From: a virus
Lineage: Duplodnaviria > Heunggongvirae > Uroviricota > Caudoviricetes
Virus record (IMG/VR): IMGVR_UViG_2778261165_000015
Strand: one strand, 5' to 3'
DNA length: 4,766 nt
The notes under the pieces were generated by a model. That model did not search any database and was not told where the DNA came from. It saw only the letters and a program-made list of their open reading frames with translations. The number at the start of each line of letters is the position of its first letter. Position 1 is the stretch's first letter. A program made the position numbers and the translations under genes. Positions 1 to 4,766 of this stretch are shown here, one piece after another.

Positions 1-110
1 TGGAGATCACTGAATAACAAAATGAGTCAAAAGTGATCTCCATCGATGTTATTCAGCGATCTGTTCAAATGTTATTACCCGATCTCGATGGAAGTTATTG
101 AGTGATCTCC
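1..110. repeat. Array of GATC-containing 15-bp repeats (consensus GTTATTnnnYGATCT): direct copies at 48-62, 71-85 and 94-108 phased at exactly 23 bp, one inverted copy at 4-18, and a 9-bp inverted repeat GGAGATCAC / GTGATCTCC at 2-10 / 33-41
   Basis: Read directly: gttattcagcgatct (48-62), gttattacccgatct (71-85), gttattgagtgatct (94-108); agatcactgaataac (4-18) is the reverse complement of the consensus. GATC at 5, 36, 58, 81 and 104. The 23-bp period is not a multiple of 3, so this is a DNA-level signal, not a protein repeat. Confidence 0.8.
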
Positions 111-1851
111 TTTCATGAAAATACGCATCTTTAGCTAACTCTGGTAATTTAGCTTGTGCTTCCATTCGTTCAGGTGTAGAAGCTAATCTCTCATAACCTG
201 CATAGATAGCACTACCAGCTAATAACATATTCATAGGGTTTAGTCTTGATGGTTTCCCATTCTTTCTATTCACGTTATCCGCTGTAGTATCAGCGACCTG
301 ACCTAATCTTGTGATAGCAGTCATAAGCCCGTAAATACTTCTGGTTACACCAACAACTTTATTCACAGCAATAACACCAGCCAAGACTTTTAAACTATTA
401 ATCAAGCCAGAACCTAAAGCATCAACAACTTTCTTTTGTTCATCGGTTAAACCACGGTAAGCCAATGTCACCTCATCAAAGAAACCTCTCACCTTGTAAG
501 AAATATCAGTCAATGAATCGACACCATGTGACATATCAGTCATCAAGCTACCAAGAGATTCACCAAGACTTTTACCACTTCCACCTAAACTGTTTAAAAG
601 CGTTGTTAGGCTTCTTGTGAAATCTTGAAGACCATTTTCAGAACCTCTGAAGATACTATCAAGCGTGGTATTCCAAGAGTTTTTCAGGTTCCCTAGTTGT
701 GCCTGAGTACTTTCTGAAATAGTTTTCCAGCCACCTTTAGCGGTGATTTGTTTATTCAGTTCCTGAGTGACCTTCTGAAGAGTATCGGCAGATTTTAAAG
801 CCCCCTTCTTCATGGCATCAAATAGCTCTTGTTCATTCCTTCCGATTGCTTTAGCGAATACCTGAACCATACCAGGAACAGCTTCAGCTAATTGCCCCTT
901 AAGCTCTTCAGCCATAACCTGACCCTTACCAGCCATCTGTGATAATGCTGTCAGTGCTCGCTTAATCTCTTCTTCACTTCTCCCCATCAGACGAGCATAG
1001 CCAATCATATTTTTAAAAAGTTCTTCAGAACCTTGAATGCCCATAGACTCTTTAGCTGAAGCACCAAAACCAGCAAACTGTGATTGCAGTTCAGCGATAT
1101 CTAAACCCGTTGTTTGAGCTAATGACTTTGTGAACTCTTTTACTTGAACTGCATCTTTATCAAATACGAAATCAATTGAACGTTCAGCACTTGCACGCTG
1201 TAAACCAATTTCCATAATCTTCTGATAACTGGCTAATACAGCCTGCATTGAGATAAATGCACCTGCTGTTTTAACTGCCGCTGAAGACAGGTTATCAAGA
1301 CTATTAGCTGCTCTGTCACCATTAATGCTGGTGGATGTATGACCTTTAGCTTTAGCAATTGCTTCTCTGACTGAAGCATTTAACTGAGCTAACTTCTCAT
1401 TGAATTTTGAAGAATCCATTGACCCAGCTTTAGCAGATAGCCCGTAAAACTGAGATTTGATGTATTTCTGCAAAATAGGGTCGAAGCCTTTCAGCTTGCT
1501 CATGTTAGCCTGATAAGCTGCTCTTACAGCTCGGTCACCAGTATTTACTCTTGGCTGTCTTGGCTGTCTAAGTGGCTTTAAAGTATCCTCAATTTCCGTT
1601 TTAATCTTAAACGCTTTAGTGTTTTTAAGACGCTGCTCAATCTTGGAAACAGTTTTATCGACATTCTTTTCCATTAGTTTGAGAGAATCATTTAAAGGCG
1701 TAGGATTCACTTTAAACGCCTTATTCAATCGCTTCTCAATTCGTGATGCTACCTGCATCGTTTGTTTCTCGGCTTTTTCCAGACCTTTTAAAACTTTCTG
1801 AGAGTTAAAACTTAACTCAATCAGAAAATCATCAACTTTAAACTGTGCCAT
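49..1851 (-). CDS. Phage tail tape measure protein, lambda gpH-like (600 aa)
   Basis: 600-aa ORF with TAA stop at 49-51. N-terminus MAQFKVDDFLIELSF resembles the lambda H N-terminus as I recall it (MAEPVGDLVVDLSL). Central segment ALTALSQMAGKGQVMAEELKGQLAEAVPGMVQVFAKAIG matches the tape-measure-domain signature from memory. Helical, Ala/Leu/Lys/Gln-rich composition and a hydrophobic C-terminal stretch fit the family. SD AAGAGGTG lies 11 nt upstream of the ATG; an in-frame TGA two codons upstream fixes the start. Not verified by search. Confidence 0.75.
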   Translation of the reverse strand: MAQFKVDDFLIELSFNSQKVLKGLEKAEKQTMQVASRIEKRLNKAFKVNPTPLNDSLKLMEKNVDKTVSKIEQRLKNTKAFKIKTEIEDTLKPLRQPRQPRVNTGDRAVRAAYQANMSKLKGFDPILQKYIKSQFYGLSAKAGSMDSSKFNEKLAQLNASVREAIAKAKGHTSTSINGDRAANSLDNLSSAAVKTAGAFISMQAVLASYQKIMEIGLQRASAERSIDFVFDKDAVQVKEFTKSLAQTTGLDIAELQSQFAGFGASAKESMGIQGSEELFKNMIGYARLMGRSEEEIKRALTALSQMAGKGQVMAEELKGQLAEAVPGMVQVFAKAIGRNEQELFDAMKKGALKSADTLQKVTQELNKQITAKGGWKTISESTQAQLGNLKNSWNTTLDSIFRGSENGLQDFTRSLTTLLNSLGGSGKSLGESLGSLMTDMSHGVDSLTDISYKVRGFFDEVTLAYRGLTDEQKKVVDALGSGLINSLKVLAGVIAVNKVVGVTRSIYGLMTAITRLGQVADTTADNVNRKNGKPSRLNPMNMLLAGSAIYAGYERLASTPERMEAQAKLPELAKDAYFHERRSLNNFHRDRVITFEQIAE

Positions 1852-1879
1852 TGTTCATATTTCACCTCTTTAAGCGTGA

Positions 1880-1934
1880 GCTACGTAAAAAATAATTTTT
1901 GGTGGGTATATCTGTTCAGAAGATTTCACGTAGC
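1880..1934 (-). promoter_or_regulatory. Imperfect 11-bp inverted repeat (GCTACGTRAAA) enclosing 33 bp, in the 5' untranslated region just upstream of the tape measure RBS
   Basis: gctacgtaaaa at 1880-1890 and tttcacgtagc at 1924-1934 (10/11 complementary). Would form an 11-bp stem with one G-U pair in the minus-strand RNA, or act as a palindromic operator in DNA. Confidence 0.4.
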
Positions 1935-1961
1935 ACATAGGATTCGATAGAAGACTATCTC

Positions 1962-2010
1962 ATATACAAAAAAGGGAGAAACTACCGATATCACTCGATA
2001 ATCTCTCCCG
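1962..2010 (-). terminator. Rho-independent terminator downstream of the 69-aa gene
   Basis: Minus-strand RNA reads GGGAGAG...UUCUCCC (stem from 1974-1979 / 2004-2009, with an inner UAUC/GAUA helix) followed immediately by UUUUUUGUAU (A-run 1968-1973 on plus). Sits ~25 nt after the stop of the 2034..2243 CDS. Confidence 0.6.
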
Positions 2011-2033
2011 TACTTTACCCAACCAATTCTTTT

Positions 2034-2243
2034 TTAATGTCTGACAAGATAATGTAGTTCCGTTTCACCTATGACTTGAGCATCAGAAGGAATACGGTCA
2101 ATACACCACTTTGGAATCTTGCGTGTTTTTGGTTTGCGTGAGGTGATAACTTGACGTTTGTTTTTAATTCTTAAGGCTGGATTGGCTTGTAACTTTAAGT
2201 TTTCACAAACAGACCGAATAGTCTCTAAACGTTCTTCAAACAT
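2034..2243 (-). CDS. Hypothetical small basic protein (69 aa)
   Basis: ORF with a strong SD (AAGAGGTG, 4-nt spacer, ATG). Lys/Arg-rich centre (RIKNKRQVITSRKPKTRKIPKW). Same frame as the upstream gene, separated by TGA and its own SD, so not a frameshift product. No family recognised. Confidence 0.6.
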   Translation of the reverse strand: MFEERLETIRSVCENLKLQANPALRIKNKRQVITSRKPKTRKIPKWCIDRIPSDAQVIGETELHYLVRH

Positions 2244-2267
2244 TAATCACCTCTTCTTAATTCATAA

Positions 2268-2978
2268 TCAAAGTGCTTTGCTGTATTTCTGAGAAATCTT
2301 AGTAAGCTGCTCAATATCAGCCTGCATAGCAATCTTCTTCTGTGATTCATATTCACTAATAATCGCTTTCATGCTATCAAGTTCTTTTTTAAGCTTTTGC
2401 TTTAACTTATCCAGCTTATCGGAGTAATGCTTAGTCAGATTAGCTTCAGCTAGCTGAAGAATCTCTTCATCTGTTTTATCAGTCATCAGAACAAATTGAC
2501 CAGAACCCCTTAATGCTTGTCTGACATCAATTAACCGGAACCCTTCAGGGATACTTTGAAGAACTTTAGGAACGTCTTCAATCGCTGTACCAAAACCATC
2601 ATTAAAGTTCCCTTCATAATAGATAAACGGGTTTGACTTAATCTCGTAAGCAATATCATATTCTGAAGGTTTCGAGGTTTCTTCGAAGTTCTTAACAGCA
2701 TCGTAAGCAATATCAAGTCTAAGACGCTGTGATTTTAAAGCTGGGTAATATTCACGCTCAAGATTAAATAGTGCTTCACTTTTGCAGATATCTGGCATTT
2801 CTTGAGGTTCAGGAGACACAAAGGTAATTTCCTTTGGTGACATCTTTAGCGATTGCTCAAGCTTAATTCTTTCATCGTGTTCTTTACGCTGAATAGCGAT
2901 AGCTGGATGTTCAGTCGTTGGTGACCAGTCACCGAAGCTATCAATCACTTTGCCATTAATGTAAATATCGTTTGTCAT
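2268..2978 (-). CDS. Hypothetical protein (236 aa) with a C-terminal coiled-coil-like region
   Basis: ORF with SD GAGG 9 nt upstream of the ATG. C-terminal ~60 residues are heptad-like and K/E/L/Q-rich (KLDKLKQKLKKELDSMKAIISEYESQKKIAMQADIEQL). No recognisable catalytic motif. Confidence 0.7.
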   Translation of the reverse strand: MTNDIYINGKVIDSFGDWSPTTEHPAIAIQRKEHDERIKLEQSLKMSPKEITFVSPEPQEMPDICKSEALFNLEREYYPALKSQRLRLDIAYDAVKNFEETSKPSEYDIAYEIKSNPFIYYEGNFNDGFGTAIEDVPKVLQSIPEGFRLIDVRQALRGSGQFVLMTDKTDEEILQLAEANLTKHYSDKLDKLKQKLKKELDSMKAIISEYESQKKIAMQADIEQLTKISQKYSKAL

Positions 2979-3003
2979 TATTTTTTTCCTCTAAGTGTGG
3001 TTA

Positions 3004-3081
3004 TTTCTTAATAGAGCACCTTCAACGCCAATACACTTAGAAGATGACTTAACGATTTATTAAAGATGCTCTATTAAGAAA
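3004..3081. repeat. Perfect 15-bp inverted repeat (TTTCTTAATAGAGCA) with arms at 3004-3018 and 3067-3081, 48-bp spacer
   Basis: Read directly; the reverse complement of 3067-3081 equals 3004-3018 exactly. Lies between hairpin H1 and the RBS of the 236-aa gene. Confidence 0.75.
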
Positions 3082-3110
3082 AGCCCTAAACATAATCTGT
3101 GAAGGGCTTT
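3071..3110 (-). terminator. Terminator-like hairpin H1 (AAAGCCCT / AGGGCTTT stem, 15-nt loop) followed by UUUUCUU on the minus strand
   Basis: Stem 3080-3087 / 3103-3110. The U-tract overlaps one arm of the 15-bp inverted repeat. Short stem, so termination is likely partial. Confidence 0.4.
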
Positions 3111-3170
3111 GAAGGTTTGCTTTATAACGTTAACGAAGTTTCAGGAAAAACTTTCTTTAAAAGCTCTGTT

Positions 3171-3209
3171 TAAAAACTCTTAAAGAAAGCCCTAATCATG
3201 AGTTAGGGC
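3171..3209 (-). terminator. Rho-independent terminator H2 (GCCCTAA / TTAGGGC stem, 7-nt loop) followed by UUUCUUUAAGAGUUUUU
   Basis: Perfect 7-bp stem at 3189-3195 / 3203-3209 with a U-rich tract on the minus strand. Shares the AAGAAA(A)GCCCTAA module with H1. Confidence 0.55.
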
Positions 3210-3255
3210 AAAGCTGTAAAGGATTCAAACGAATGAACAAAGACTTTTTGAGATA

Positions 3256-3280
3256 GCCTCTCAAGTTATATAAGAGAGGC
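3256..3280 (-). other. Stem-loop H3 (GCCTCTC / GAGAGGC, 11-nt loop) within the leader; no adjacent U-tract
   Basis: Perfect 7-bp inverted repeat read directly; flanks are not U-rich on either strand, so probably not a terminator. Confidence 0.4.
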
Positions 3281-3377
3281 CATGACGAAAAGCATTGCAC
3301 CTTTCCAACTCAGAATATCCATCCATCGGATTATTGAAAATATGATTTTAGGAAAAATTGCTCTTCCTATATATACA

Positions 3378-3406
3378 ATTATGTCATGCTCAAGGTTATT
3401 TGTCAA
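3378..3406 (-). promoter_or_regulatory. Near-consensus sigma70-type promoter: -35 TTGACA, 17-bp spacer, extended -10 TGaCATAAT
   Basis: Minus strand reads gctgTTGACAaataaccttgagcaTGaCATAATtgtatat. -35 is 6/6, spacer 17, -10 is 5/6 with a TG at -15/-14. Predicted start site near 3371, transcribing toward the terminators and the 236-aa gene. Confidence 0.55.
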
Positions 3407-3431
3407 CAGCTTTTAACAGATTGATAACAAT

Positions 3432-3497
3432 CTATACTTTAATAGACGCACCTGCAATCATACCAACCAATACAAAACAGATAATCACCAATTCCAT
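3432..3497 (-). CDS. Candidate 21-aa hydrophobic micro-protein (MELVIICFVLVGMIAGASIKV), a single predicted transmembrane helix
   Basis: Not in the supplied ORF track (too short). ATG overlaps the upstream TAA stop (TAATG). SD AAGGTGG sits 7 nt upstream. A 17-residue uninterrupted hydrophobic core is flanked by E and K. TAG stop at 3432-3434. Confidence 0.4.
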   Translation of the reverse strand: MELVIICFVLVGMIAGASIKV

Positions 3498-3820
3498 TAA
3501 TGCACCACCTTCGAATCCGTCACCAAAATATTGTCAGCGTACAAAATTGCTATAGCTGCCTTGAGATATCTTTCAGGGCTAACGCTGTATTTGTTCGTTT
3601 GCTCAATAACCAATCTTTTCATATTACTGTCTGTAATTGGTAACATCATTCGAGGCTCGTTAAACTCCACCGAGTGAATAAAGTCAGAGATGCTTTCCGC
3701 ATTATCAGCCATTAACTCTAACAACTTATCAAAGTCAATGCTAACACCTACATCAGTGAAAGCCTGAATCATCATGGCGGTGTCGGTATCAATAAAAATC
3801 TGTAGTGGGAAATTATTCAT
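3497..3820 (-). CDS. Hypothetical protein (107 aa from ATG 3820; the track's longer 144-aa form starts at 3931)
   Basis: ATG at 3820 has an AGGA SD with 8-nt spacing. The extra 37 codons upstream (3821-3931) are GC-richer with atypical codons (CCG, CTC, AGG), lack a good SD and overlap an inverted repeat, so the shorter start is preferred. No cysteines, no recognised motif. Confidence 0.55.
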   Translation of the reverse strand: MNNFPLQIFIDTDTAMMIQAFTDVGVSIDFDKLLELMADNAESISDFIHSVEFNEPRMMLPITDSNMKRLVIEQTNKYSVSPERYLKAAIAILYADNILVTDSKVVH

Positions 3821-3899
3821 TTTTAAAATCCTATAAAAACACATCTTAAATCTGCCAAAATAACCATTCTGAGGCCAGTAACCATGCGGGTTACAGAGG

Positions 3900-3946
3900 G
3901 AGTGAGACACCTTAGTAATAGGGTAGCTCATCTTTGAGTCTCACTC
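3900..3946. repeat. 9-bp inverted repeat GAGTGAGAC / GTCTCACTC with a 29-bp spacer, between the 128-aa and 107-aa genes
   Basis: 3900-3908 and 3938-3946 are exact reverse complements. No U-tract follows, so it looks like an operator or RNA structure rather than a terminator. Confidence 0.45.
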
Positions 3947-3958
3947 ATTCTCACAGAC

Positions 3959-4345
3959 TTACACAGACGCTTTAATCTTGTAGTATTGACTACGTGATAA
4001 GCCGTATTTCTCAGAAATATAACTTTGTGATTGTCCTTTGGTGATTGCATCAATGATTAAATCTTTATCGTATCTGTTACCGTTGGCTTTGTGCTTGTCA
4101 CTATTTTTAATAGAGTTGAAGTTCTCCATTAATTCAATGGCGTCTTTAAGGTCGCTTTCGTAAGCATAATCAAAACCTCTGATAAACTCGAAATCACCAT
4201 TATCTTTTTGTGCTTCAGCCCAGATATCAAATCTTGAGGCTAATTGCTGGTGGGTAAACTTGGGTTTATTGGTTTGTGTTACGTCTTTCCAGACTTTACC
4301 GTCAAATCTTACCAAATGGTCACGATGTTTATAAAAGTCATACAT
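3959..4345 (-). CDS. Hypothetical DNA-binding protein (128 aa) with a C-terminal resolvase/Hin-type helix-turn-helix
   Basis: Strong SD GGAGG 4 nt before the ATG, which overlaps the upstream stop (TAATG). C-terminus KGQSQSYISEKYGLSRSQYYKIK resembles the Hin/Gin recombinase HTH (GIGVSTLYRYF pattern). The ~95-aa N-terminal part is too short and lacks the serine-recombinase catalytic signature. Confidence 0.7.
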   Translation of the reverse strand: MYDFYKHRDHLVRFDGKVWKDVTQTNKPKFTHQQLASRFDIWAEAQKDNGDFEFIRGFDYAYESDLKDAIELMENFNSIKNSDKHKANGNRYDKDLIIDAITKGQSQSYISEKYGLSRSQYYKIKASV

Positions 4346-4581
4346 TAAACCTCCATCGCTAATTTGTGAATTTTGATACTTAGTAACCTTGCTAAATCCA
4401 GTCCAAAAGCATTTAAAGATTTCAGACTATCAAGGTCATCTTTCTTAATCCTGACATGGTGTCTTGCTGCCTCTAAACGACTATTAAGCAAATCCTGCTC
4501 GTTAATATCACGGTTAATTGCAAGCTTCATCACTGCTGAGTGCTGAGAGATCCCCTCATAATTTCCCCAAAGCGTAACCAT
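4345..4581 (-). CDS. Hypothetical protein (78 aa as drawn; start uncertain)
   Basis: ORF whose stop overlaps the start of the 128-aa gene. No convincing SD before ATG 4581 or the internal GTG/ATG at codons 17/18. The first 26 nt overlap the upstream partial ORF. Confidence 0.45.
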   Translation of the reverse strand: MVTLWGNYEGISQHSAVMKLAINRDINEQDLLNSRLEAARHHVRIKKDDLDSLKSLNAFGLDLARLLSIKIHKLAMEV

Positions 4582-4766
4582 GTGTGAATAAATTTTGAGC
4601 TAGTAGGGTTGCAGCCACGAGTAAGTCTTCCCTTGTTATTGTGTAGCCAGAATGCCGCAAAACTTCCATGCCTAAGCGAACTGTTGAGAGTACGTTTCGA
4701 TTTCTGACTGTGTTAGCCTGGAAGTGCTTGTCCCAACCTTGTTTCTGAGCATGAACGCCCGCAAGC
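4556..4766 (-). CDS. 3' end of a gene whose 5' part lies beyond the window (69 codons visible, C-terminus ...LFTHGYALGKL)
   Basis: Stop-free minus-strand frame from the window edge to TGA at 4556-4558, not in the supplied track because no start is in the window. GC content here is visibly higher (~47%) than the rest. Confidence 0.45.
   Translation of the reverse strand, partial: LAGVHAQKQGWDKHFQANTVRNRNVLSTVRLGMEVLRHSGYTITREDLLVAATLLAQNLFTHGYALGKL

What the first reader, a model, noticed from the sequence alone, without database searches (positions are those of the whole stretch)
1..110. Phased array of GATC-containing 15-bp repeats at the 3' end of the tape measure gene
Three direct copies of GTTATTnnnYGATCT are spaced at exactly 23 bp (about two helical turns, so all on one DNA face), with an inverted copy 29 bp away and a 9-bp hairpin-forming inverted repeat. 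That geometry is typical of a cooperative protein-binding array. Comparable arrangements are lambda ori iterons inside gene O, P1 pac with its GATC hexamers, transposase or integrase arm sites, and SeqA-bound GATC clusters. Which of these applies cannot be decided from sequence. The array is cut by the window edge and may continue.
Basis: partly seen in the sequence, partly recalled or inferred. Interest (0 to 1): 0.75.

Follow-up and report, generated by a model that had tools for sequence, protein, structure and literature searches.

The report
End of insertion sequence ISEc12
The phased GATC repeats are the transposase-binding sites at the left end of a common, already catalogued E. coli insertion sequence (ISEc12, IS21 family) that has jumped into and truncated a phage-type tape measure gene, so the feature is real but ordinary.

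Summary
Three GTTATTnnnnGATCT copies sit exactly 23 bp apart, with a fourth half-copy in the same register, an inverted copy, and an 11-bp perfect inverted repeat. This is well above chance (4 matches against 0.38 expected).

The repeats do not belong to the tape measure gene. Window 1-127 is the left terminus of the IS21-family element ISEc12. It is 100% identical to thousands of copies in E. coli genomes, in unrelated contexts, always next to istA/istB. The IS ends at window 127 (...ACGCA|TCTTT).

The intact tape measure gene (694 aa) continues for 120 more codons of different sequence and has no such motif. The last 26 codons of the window's ORF are read-through into the IS.

Multiple direct repeats spaced 23 bp apart, each with two boxes about one helical turn apart, ending in CA and giving 5-bp target duplications, are the published hallmark of IS21-family ends bound by the IstA transposase. 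The 23-bp period recurs in 8 of 9 relatives examined.

GATC is part of the inherited recognition core. It also occurs in relatives from hosts that, to my knowledge, lack Dam, so it is not evidence for Dam or SeqA control.

Verdict: already known, low interest.

Side note: the surrounding 11-kb island has no GATC at all and shares a tail-gene pair with Felixounavirus phages.

The parts
1..127 (-). Left end of ISEc12 (IS21 family), IS positions 127 to 1. The rest of the IS (istA, istB, right end) lies beyond the window's left edge.
   Evidence: 100% identical to 5096 places in 1703 E. coli genomes in unrelated contexts. It lies next to genes RefSeq annotates as ISEc12 istA/istB and next to the IS copy in phage PhiR12_1. 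A three-context alignment breaks exactly at 127|128, and megablast matches split there too.
111..127 (-). Terminal segment of the IS, 5'-TGCGTATTTTCATGAAA on the IS strand. The terminal CA (window 126-127) is the 3' end that is transferred.
   Evidence: Shared with the right end, TGCGTATTACCGTGAA. The terminal CA dinucleotide is the cleaved and transferred end in IS21-family elements (PMC10122671).
94..110 (-). Repeat L1 (GGAGATCACTCAATAAC on the IS strand, IS 18-34). Predicted site for the catalytic IstA subunit.
   Evidence: Role assigned by analogy with R1 in the IS5376 IstA-DNA structure.
71..87 (-). Repeat L2 (CGAGATCGGGTAATAAC, IS 41-57), 23 bp from L1. Predicted site for the structural IstA subunit.
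   Evidence: IstA needs two complete direct repeats for integration.
48..64 (-). Repeat L3 (ACAGATCGCTGAATAAC, IS 64-80), 23 bp from L2. Accessory site; role inferred only.
   Evidence: About four direct repeats also occur in seven of the eight relatives' left ends read, and five in the ISSso4-like one.
32..41 (-). Half-repeat L4 (GGAGATCACT, IS 87-96), in the 23-bp register but lacking the AATAAC box.
   Evidence: GATC at 35, 23 bp from 58. The same 'GATCACTTTTT' half-site ends the direct array in the Klebsiella relative, whose IstA is 56% identical.
2..18 (+). Inverted full copy (GGAGATCACTGAATAAC read on the window's + strand, IS 110-126), facing the direct array.
   Evidence: Inverted inner copies are also present in the relatives L006, L007, L013 and L016.
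1..42 (.). Palindrome made by the inverted copy and L4. Arms are 1-11 and 32-42 (11 of 11 matching) with a 20-nt spacer, cut by the window edge.
   Evidence: In full copies the arms are IS 74-96 / 116-138, 21 of 23 matching.
128..132 (.). Insertion junction. TCTTT is the expected 5-bp target duplication if this was a simple insertion.
   Evidence: The intact gene reads ...CCAGAC|TCTTTAGC. Two full copies have 5-bp duplications, CAAGG and GGCGG. The other junction is not in the window, so this is untested here.
49..1851 (-). Truncated, chimeric tape measure ORF (600 aa). Residues 1-574 are native (window 128-1851). Codon 575 spans the junction. Residues 576-600 and the stop codon (49-51) are IS sequence.
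   Evidence: Pfam TMP_3 E=1e-19 and PHROG tape measure families. 99% identical to residues 1-574 of the intact 694-aa protein of strain ACN001, with no similarity after that.
4543..4766 (-). End of a second insertion sequence (IS10 / ISVsa5, the end that carries a GATC). It bounds the native DNA on the other side.
   Evidence: Matches to homologous islands stop at 4542.

Best explanation
**What it is.** Window 1-127 is the left terminal inverted repeat region of the insertion sequence ISEc12 (IS21 family, 2581 bp, genes istA and istB). The IS has inserted into a tape measure gene of a phage-like island.

**What the repeats do.** The GATC-containing repeats are the binding sites of the element's own transposase, IstA. 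Each unit has two boxes, GGAGATC(A/G) and AATAAC, about one helical turn apart. That layout fits recognition by the two N-terminal helix-turn-helix domains of one IstA subunit.

**How transposition proceeds.** By analogy with the solved IS5376 complex:
- An IstA tetramer pairs the two IS ends.
- The catalytic subunits sit on the outermost repeat (L1/R1), next to the terminal CA.
- The structural subunits sit on the second repeat (L2/R2).
- The 23-bp spacing lets the two ends cross in a right-handed, supercoil-like path.
- The IstB ATPase then delivers a bent target, and insertion gives a 5-bp duplication.

**Shown versus inferred.**
- Shown here: identity with ISEc12, the exact IS boundary, the repeat architecture at both ends, 5-bp duplications in two full copies, the 23-bp period in relatives, and the truncation of the tape measure gene.
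- Inferred from published work on a distant homologue: which subunit binds which repeat.
- Inferred only: L3, the L4 half-site and the inverted inner copy are left-end-specific accessory or regulatory IstA sites, for example setting left/right asymmetry or damping istA expression.
For: **Identity and mobility**
- 1-127 is 100% identical to 5096 places in 1703 E. coli genomes. These sit inside unrelated genes (lom, ypfH, an autotransporter gene, other IS elements).
- RefSeq names the adjacent genes 'IS21-like element ISEc12 family transposase / helper ATPase IstB'.
- The adjacent proteins hit Pfam rve + Mu-transpos_C_2 and IstB_IS21. The transposase matches the solved IS5376 IstA at E=3e-13.

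**Boundary**
- Alignment of three contexts, and the megablast split, both fall at 127|128.
- The IS strand begins TG and ends CA. Both full copies are 2581 bp with 5-bp duplications.

**Architecture**
- Left-end GATC lies at IS positions 21, 44, 67 and 90, plus an inverted copy at 120.
- The right end has two direct repeats, also 23 bp apart, plus an inverted core.

**Literature**
- IS21-family ends consist of multiple direct repeats (L1/L2, R1/R2) separated by 23 bp.
- Each repeat has two conserved boxes about 10 bp apart, read by HTH-1 and HTH-2.
- Two repeats are required for integration, and the duplication is 5 bp (PMC10122671; PMC11208146).

**Relatives**
- 23 bp is the top autocorrelation lag in 8 of 9 left ends, across elements whose IstA is only 37-56% identical to that of ISEc12.

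**The gene itself**
- The intact tape measure gene lacks the motif and encodes a different C-terminus.
Against: - Nothing contradicts the identification.
- IstA binding to these particular sequences was not tested. The structural model comes from a distant homologue (IS5376), and the phmmer alignment covers only the catalytic and beta-barrel part, not the DNA-binding N-terminus.
- The IS5376 boxes are described as GC-rich, whereas one ISEc12 box (AATAAC) is AT-rich.
- The published model uses only two repeats per end. It does not explain L3, L4 or the inverted copy.
- The other IS junction is outside the window and no complete genome holds this exact insertion. A simple insertion with a TCTTT duplication could not be confirmed.
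Confidence: 0.96

Rival explanations
1. The array is a cis-acting site of the phage-like element itself: replication-origin iterons (lambda ori type) or a packaging site (P1 pac type) embedded in the end of the tape measure gene.
For: Only the geometry favours this: phased direct repeats with GATC inside an ORF.
Against: - The 127 bp are foreign to the gene. Intact tape measure genes that are 99% identical up to the junction continue with unrelated sequence and have no motif copies.
- The same 127 bp occur thousands of times elsewhere, next to istA/istB.
- The native island DNA contains no GATC at all.
Confidence: 0.01
2. The GATC sites are there for Dam methylation. The array would be a SeqA-bound or Dam-regulated cluster that couples the IS (or the locus) to replication, as in IS10 and IS50. 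On this view methylation control, not transposase recognition, is the reason for the GATCs.
For: - Every repeat holds a GATC: five in the left end and three in the right end of ISEc12.
- The host is E. coli, which has Dam (own knowledge).
- Spacing of 23 bp is within the range in which SeqA can bridge hemimethylated sites (own knowledge).
Against: - Relatives from Burkholderia, Cupriavidus and Bradyrhizobium carry GATC in each repeat as well (GTGATCA, GGATCGTGAGC). These hosts are outside the dam/seqA/mutH group of gamma-proteobacteria (own knowledge).
- Other relatives have GTGACC, GTGAAC, TTGGAC or GTGCCA at the same place.
- GATC is therefore one variant of an inherited recognition core.
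- No paper in the searched library links IS21-family elements with Dam.
- Methylation may still modulate binding as a side effect. That was not tested.
Confidence: 0.05
3. The palindrome (inverted copy plus L4) acts as an RNA hairpin in the istA leader, for example blocking transcripts that read in from outside, rather than as protein-binding DNA.
For: The sense RNA of the left end folds well below its shuffles (-60 kcal/mol, z = -4.2). It forms a long stem from these arms and a second stem over the istA ribosome-binding site.
Against: - The arms are made of the same two boxes as L1-L3.
- In relatives the boxes are conserved while the spacers between them differ in sequence and length. This fits protein sites better than a conserved stem.
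- No U-run follows the stem, and the terminator scan found nothing at this palindrome; its only hit was a short 5-pair stem at the IS/ypfH junction.
- Copies of ISEc12 are almost invariant, so covariation cannot be assessed.
Confidence: 0.1
4. The repeats are a coincidence of coding sequence at the C-terminus of the tape measure protein.
For: The ORF 49..1851 (-) does run through 49-127.
Against: - A 23-bp period is not a multiple of three.
- The motif count is far above chance.
- The last 26 codons have no counterpart in the intact protein.
Confidence: 0.005

Closest known systems
ISEc12 (IS21 family; name as used in RefSeq annotation)
   Same: Window 1-127 is 100% identical to the left end of annotated ISEc12 copies. 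Those copies are 2581 bp with istA and istB, TG...CA termini and 5-bp duplications.
   Different: Nothing differs in sequence. Only this insertion site is particular: it lies in a tape measure gene, 361 nt (120 codons including the stop) before the gene's end, and is not found in any of 5426 complete E. coli genomes.
IS21 / IS5376 terminal inverted repeats bound by IstA (PDB 8B4H, 8Q4D; PMC10122671, PMC11208146)
   Same: - Multiple direct repeats at each end, 23 bp apart.
- Two boxes per repeat, about one helical turn apart.
- Terminal CA and a 5-bp duplication.
- A homologous DDE transposase and an IstB helper.
   Different: - The published model has two repeats per end with GC-rich boxes.
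- The ISEc12 left end has three full repeats, one half-repeat and an inverted inner copy, and one of its boxes is AT-rich.
- The transposases are only distantly related (E=3e-13, core domains only).
Phage Mu ends (L1-L3, R1-R3) and Tn7 ends (several TnsB sites)
   Same: Several transposase sites per end, differing in number and spacing between left and right. The transposases are related DDE enzymes with tandem DNA-binding domains and an ATPase helper (compared in PMC10122671).
   Different: Different families and different site sequences. Mu and Tn7 sites are not strictly phased at 23 bp (own knowledge).
Dam-regulated ends of IS10 and IS50
   Same: GATC lies inside the sequence that the transposase contacts. 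An IS10 end with its GATC lies in this same window at 4543-4766.
   Different: For IS10 and IS50 the effect of methylation is experimentally established (own knowledge; Yin et al. 1988 appears in the reference list shown). For ISEc12 nothing is known, and relatives in hosts that to my knowledge lack Dam keep the GATC.

Membership tests
IS21-family terminal inverted repeat (IstA binding array) | Element termini 5'-TG...CA-3' | tested here: met
   The IS strand starts TGCGTATT (window 127 down to 120). The right end in full copies ends ...AATACGCA.
IS21-family terminal inverted repeat (IstA binding array) | At least two direct repeats at each end, about 23 bp apart | tested here: met
   The left end has GATC cores at IS positions 21, 44, 67 and 90. 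The two right-end repeats are 23 bp apart (one search lists their GATC at 18 and 41 in a string that began 2 nt inside the terminus, so about 20 and 43 from the true end, corrected by hand). The published spacing is 23 bp, and 23 bp is the top lag in 8 of 9 relatives.
IS21-family terminal inverted repeat (IstA binding array) | Each repeat has two conserved boxes about one helical turn apart | tested here: met
   The boxes GGAGATC and AATAAC have centres about 9-10 bp apart in L1-L3, R1 and the inverted copy. Unlike IS5376, one box is AT-rich.
IS21-family terminal inverted repeat (IstA binding array) | Adjacent istA (DDE transposase) and istB (AAA+ helper) genes | tested here: met
   The genes are not in the window. 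They are present next to the identical 127 bp in L001 and L002. Pfam hits rve, Mu-transpos_C_2 and IstB_IS21, and the PDB match is to IS5376 IstA.
IS21-family terminal inverted repeat (IstA binding array) | 5-bp target site duplication | tested here: met
   CAAGG in ypfH::ISEc12 and GGCGG in PhiR12_1. For the window's own insertion the second junction is missing, so the expected TCTTT duplication is untested.
IS21-family terminal inverted repeat (IstA binding array) | IstA protein binds the repeats | not testable with these tools
   Needs EMSA or footprinting. Inferred from the IS5376 structure.
Lambda-type origin iterons | Iterons lie inside or beside the element's replication initiator gene and are conserved with it | tested here: not met
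   The array is IS DNA. Intact homologues of the host gene lack it, and the gene is a tape measure gene, not an initiator.
P1-type pac site | GATC-hexamer clusters flanking a cleavage site, belonging to the phage and lying by its terminase gene | tested here: not met
   The array travels with istA/istB into thousands of unrelated sites. The native island has no GATC at all, and no terminase gene is annotated in it.
SeqA / Dam-controlled GATC cluster | Closely spaced GATC sites | tested here: met
   GATC at 5, 35, 58, 81 and 104.
SeqA / Dam-controlled GATC cluster | GATC maintained because of methylation, that is, specific to Dam-containing hosts | tested here: not met
   Relatives from Burkholderia, Cupriavidus and Bradyrhizobium carry GATC in every repeat. 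That these hosts lack Dam rests on my own knowledge.
SeqA / Dam-controlled GATC cluster | Methylation state changes binding or activity | not testable with these tools
   Needs methylation-sensitive binding and transposition assays.

The most novel reading that the evidence does not exclude
All five left-end and all three right-end IstA boxes of ISEc12 contain GATC. In E. coli, Dam methylation (fully methylated or hemimethylated) may therefore modulate IstA binding and tie ISEc12 transposition to passage of the replication fork, as in IS10 and IS50. This would be the first such control reported for the IS21 family. A related open point is whether the conserved inverted inner copies act as an IstA operator that damps istA expression.
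Probability: 0.2. Interest if true: 0.4.

Novelty: already known. Interest (0 to 1): 0.08.

Why it matters
For genome annotation, this 'tape measure gene' is a pseudogene truncated by an IS, and its apparent C-terminus is an artefact. The window is a piece of an island bounded by two insertion sequences. No new regulatory element needs to be invoked.

The case also shows that phased arrays at window or contig edges should first be checked against mobile-element ends.

The only open biology in the array itself is the role of the extra left-end sites (L3, L4 and the inverted copy), which the published two-repeat model does not cover, and whether Dam methylation of the GATC boxes affects transposition.

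Tried and rejected
- **Exact junction in complete genomes.** I searched 5426 complete E. coli genomes for the IS/tape-measure junction, to read the second junction and the target duplication. None holds it; matches split at 127|128.
- **Nearest strain.** The closest strain (100% identical over 128-4766) has a different ISEc12 copy 334 bp further along, in the opposite orientation, plus an IS3-family insertion. I could not decide between independent insertions and an IS-mediated rearrangement.
- **Promoter scan.** A sigma-70 scan of the IS left end found nothing. A promoter assembled across abutted IS ends (TTCACG-N16/17-TATTTT) can be read by eye, by analogy with what I recall for IS21. It matches only 8 of 12 positions and was not pursued.
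- **Literature.** Searches linking the IS21 family to Dam methylation, or describing inverted inner repeats, found nothing usable.
- **Small ORFs.** Pfam and PHROG searches of the five small ORFs in the window gave no family, apart from a weak helix-turn-helix hit.
- **Scripting errors.** Searches failed for coding reasons. One search used an IS start 2 nt too far in; this was corrected (2581 bp).
- **Relative left out.** The left end of the Burkholderia copy (L009) is cut by an IS110-family element, so it was excluded from the periodicity table.

Full report
**1.

The window begins with three copies of GTTATTnnnnGATCT at 48-62, 71-85 and 94-108, spaced 23 and 23 bp apart. An inverted copy lies at 2-18. 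The pattern GTTATTN4GATC, allowing one mismatch, occurs 4 times in the window against 0.38 expected, and none of 200 shuffles reached 4.

A fourth, partial copy (AGTGATCTCC, 32-41) keeps the same register, so GATC falls at 35, 58, 81 and 104. Together with the inverted copy it forms an 11-bp perfect inverted repeat (1-11 / 32-42) with a 20-nt spacer. Five of the six GATC in the whole window lie in 1-110.

**2. The array is not part of the tape measure gene.**

- A megablast of the window against phage records matched 1-127 at 100% to Escherichia phages PhiR12_1, _2, _2_star and _4. There it lies beside genes noted as 'Transposase / Integrase' and 'ATP-binding transposition helper protein'.
- Against 5426 complete E. 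coli genomes, 1-127 matches 5096 places in 1703 genomes, nearly all at 99% identity or more. The hits lie inside unrelated genes such as lom, ypfH, an autotransporter gene and other IS elements.
- In one such copy RefSeq annotates the adjacent genes as 'IS21-like element ISEc12 family transposase' (istA) and 'helper ATPase IstB'.
- Their products hit Pfam rve + Mu-transpos_C_2 and IstB_IS21. The transposase matches the solved IS5376 IstA (8B4H, 8Q4D) at E=3e-13.

**3. The boundary is exact.**

I aligned the window with the ypfH::ISEc12 copy, the PhiR12_1 copy and an intact tape measure gene. The three IS-bearing sequences are identical up to ...GAAAATACGCA (window 127) and unrelated after it. 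The window and the intact gene are identical from 128 (TCTTTAGC...) and unrelated before it. Megablast of 40-300 likewise splits at 127|128, and no complete genome holds this junction.

In the two full copies the element is 2581 bp. It starts TG and ends CA, and is flanked by 5-bp duplications, CAAGG and GGCGG.

**4. Consequence for the gene.**

The ORF 49..1851 (-) is a tape measure protein by Pfam TMP_3 (E=1e-19) and by PHROG tape measure families. It is 99% identical to residues 1-574 of the intact 694-aa protein of strain ACN001 and has no similarity after that.

The IS therefore removes the last 120 codons. The final 26 codons and the stop (49-51) of the window's ORF are read-through into the IS. 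The intact locus has no copy of the motif.

**5. Anatomy of the IS ends (IS position = 128 minus window position).**

Left end:

| Site | Sequence on the IS strand | IS position |
|---|---|---|
| Terminus | TGCGTATTTTCATGAAA | 1-17 |
| L1 | GGAGATCACTCAATAAC | 18-34 |
| L2 | CGAGATCGGGTAATAAC | 41-57 |
| L3 | ACAGATCGCTGAATAAC | 64-80 |
| L4 (half-site) | GGAGATCACT, followed by TTTGAC | 87-96 |
| Inverted full copy | GTTATTCAGTGATCTCC | 110-126 |

Beyond the window edge there is one more GTTATT half-site. The istA start codon is at IS position 194.

Right end: TGCGTATTACCGTGAA, then R1 (GGAGATCGGTGAGTAAC) and R2 (GGAGATCGGTTCGTGTC) 23 bp apart, then an inverted core further in.

Each unit thus has two boxes, GGAGATC and AATAAC, with centres about one helical turn apart.

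**6. Match to published knowledge.**

Spinola-Amilibia et al. 2023 (PMC10122671) report the following for IS21-family elements:
- The terminal inverted repeats are composed of multiple direct repeats (L1-L2, R1-R2).
- IstA needs two complete repeats for integration.
- Each repeat holds two conserved regions about 10 bp apart, contacted by HTH-2 and HTH-1.
- Catalytic subunits bind R1 and structural subunits bind R2.
- The repeats are 'separated by 23 bp', which favours a supercoil-like crossing of the two ends.
- Insertions carry 5-bp duplications.

The 2024 Nature paper (PMC11208146) repeats this organisation. It adds that the multiple repeats may hold the transposase in an autoinhibited state until IstB arrives. 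The array in the window fits every sequence-level criterion.

**7. Relatives.**

A tblastn with ISEc12 IstA against plasmids gave elements with 30-56% identical transposases. I read the ends of twelve of these loci. L005 is an ISEc12 variant, the Vibrio locus (L010) gave no usable terminal repeat, the left end of the Burkholderia copy (L009) is cut by an IS110-family element, and L012 nearly duplicates L011. That leaves eight relatives for the left-end comparison.

A 23-bp lag is the strongest autocorrelation in 8 of the 9 left ends compared (these eight plus ISEc12); the Bacillus element gives 22. Seven of the eight relatives have about four direct repeats and the ISSso4-like one has five; inverted copies towards istA follow in four of them (L006, L007, L013, L016). 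The Klebsiella element even ends its direct array with the same 'GATCACTTTTT' half-site as ISEc12.

The core box varies:

| Core box | Host of the relative |
|---|---|
| CCGATCAC | Klebsiella |
| TCGATCA | ISSso4-type elements, E. coli and E. albertii |
| GTGATCA | Burkholderia, Cupriavidus |
| GGATCGTGAGC | Bradyrhizobium |
| GTGAACA | Shewanella |
| TTGGACA | Pseudomonas |
| GTGACCG | P. aeruginosa |
| GTGCCAC | Bacillus |

GATC is therefore one form of an inherited recognition core, and it occurs in hosts that, to my knowledge, have no Dam methylase. It is not evidence that the array exists for Dam or SeqA. Whether methylation modulates IstA binding in E. coli remains untested. I found no paper on this.

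**8. What remains unexplained within the array.**

The published two-repeat model does not cover L3, L4 or the inverted copy. Because relatives conserve the boxes while their spacers differ in sequence and length, I read these as extra IstA sites specific to the left end, with an accessory or autoregulatory role.

An RNA-level role for the palindrome is a minor rival. The left-end sense RNA folds with z = -4.2. It includes a stem formed by the palindrome arms and a second 12-bp stem covering the istA ribosome-binding site.

**9. Why the GATC cluster looked so striking.**

The native DNA between the two insertion sequences (128-4542) contains no GATC at all, against 15-18 expected. The sixth GATC of the window belongs to the end of an IS10/ISVsa5 copy that starts at 4543.

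**10. Verdict.**

The feature is real, well above chance and functional, but it is the already catalogued end of ISEc12, a common E. coli insertion sequence. The placement in the tape measure gene and the ori, pac and SeqA alternatives are not supported. Novelty: already known. Interest: low.

Noticed in passing
window 128-4542; L017 24642-35917: The native DNA of the window has no GATC (15-18 expected). In strain ACN001 the whole 11.3-kb island between yciI and tonB has 0 GATC against 46.6 expected, while the flanking chromosome has about 3-4 per kb.
   Followed up: partly
L017 24642-35917 (island); L018/L019 (phage garuso): The island looks linked to Felixounavirus (Felix O1-like) phages.
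- Its intact tape measure protein is 28% identical over its full length to theirs.
- The gene just downstream is 80% identical in protein, and 92.5% identical in DNA over 518 bp, to the gene just downstream of the phage's tape measure gene.
- GC content is the same (0.39).
- The whole 85.8-kb phage genome also has 0 GATC.
- The island has two recombinase-family genes and no annotated capsid or terminase genes.

It may be a satellite or a remnant that recombines with these virulent phages. The one search made (Felixounavirus with satellite) returned nothing on such an element.
   Followed up: partly
window 4543-4766: An end of IS10/ISVsa5 (CTGAGAGATCCCCTCATAATTTCCCC...) carrying the window's sixth GATC. 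The 9 bp before it (TGCTGAGTG) resemble the IS10 hotspot NGCTNAGCN (own knowledge). The 78-aa ORF 4345-4581 (-) has its start codon inside the IS, so it is probably a truncated gene.
   Followed up: partly
window 1-127 and 4543-4766: The window is bounded by repeated IS sequence at both ends, and the left piece is exactly 127 nt, a common maximum k-mer size in short-read assemblers. The window is probably a whole draft contig that broke at repeats. This is inference only.
   Followed up: no
L003 1-6400: In the closest strain (100% identical over 128-4766) a different ISEc12 copy sits 334 bp further along the same gene in the opposite orientation, itself split by an IS3-family element. A second copy of that IS3-family element splits the tape measure gene. 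Other strains carry IS100 in this gene. The gene has been hit by IS elements repeatedly. I could not tell independent insertions from an IS-mediated rearrangement.
   Followed up: partly
L002 3437-3465 (IS positions 163-191, outside the window): A 12-bp stem (GUAUCUUUUGCC / GGUAAAGGAUAC) covers the istA ribosome-binding site just before the start codon. It may limit translation from transcripts that read in from outside.
   Followed up: no
L009 1-1500: The Burkholderia ISBmu3 copy has its left-end repeats cut by an IS110-family element. This fits the cited report that IS110-type elements target IS21 terminal repeats (Partridge and Hall 2003, cited in PMC3971601).
   Followed up: no
window 2034-4581: Five ORFs on the minus strand (69, 236, 144, 128 and 78 aa) have no Pfam or PHROG family, apart from a weak helix-turn-helix hit in the 128-aa protein.
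   Followed up: partly
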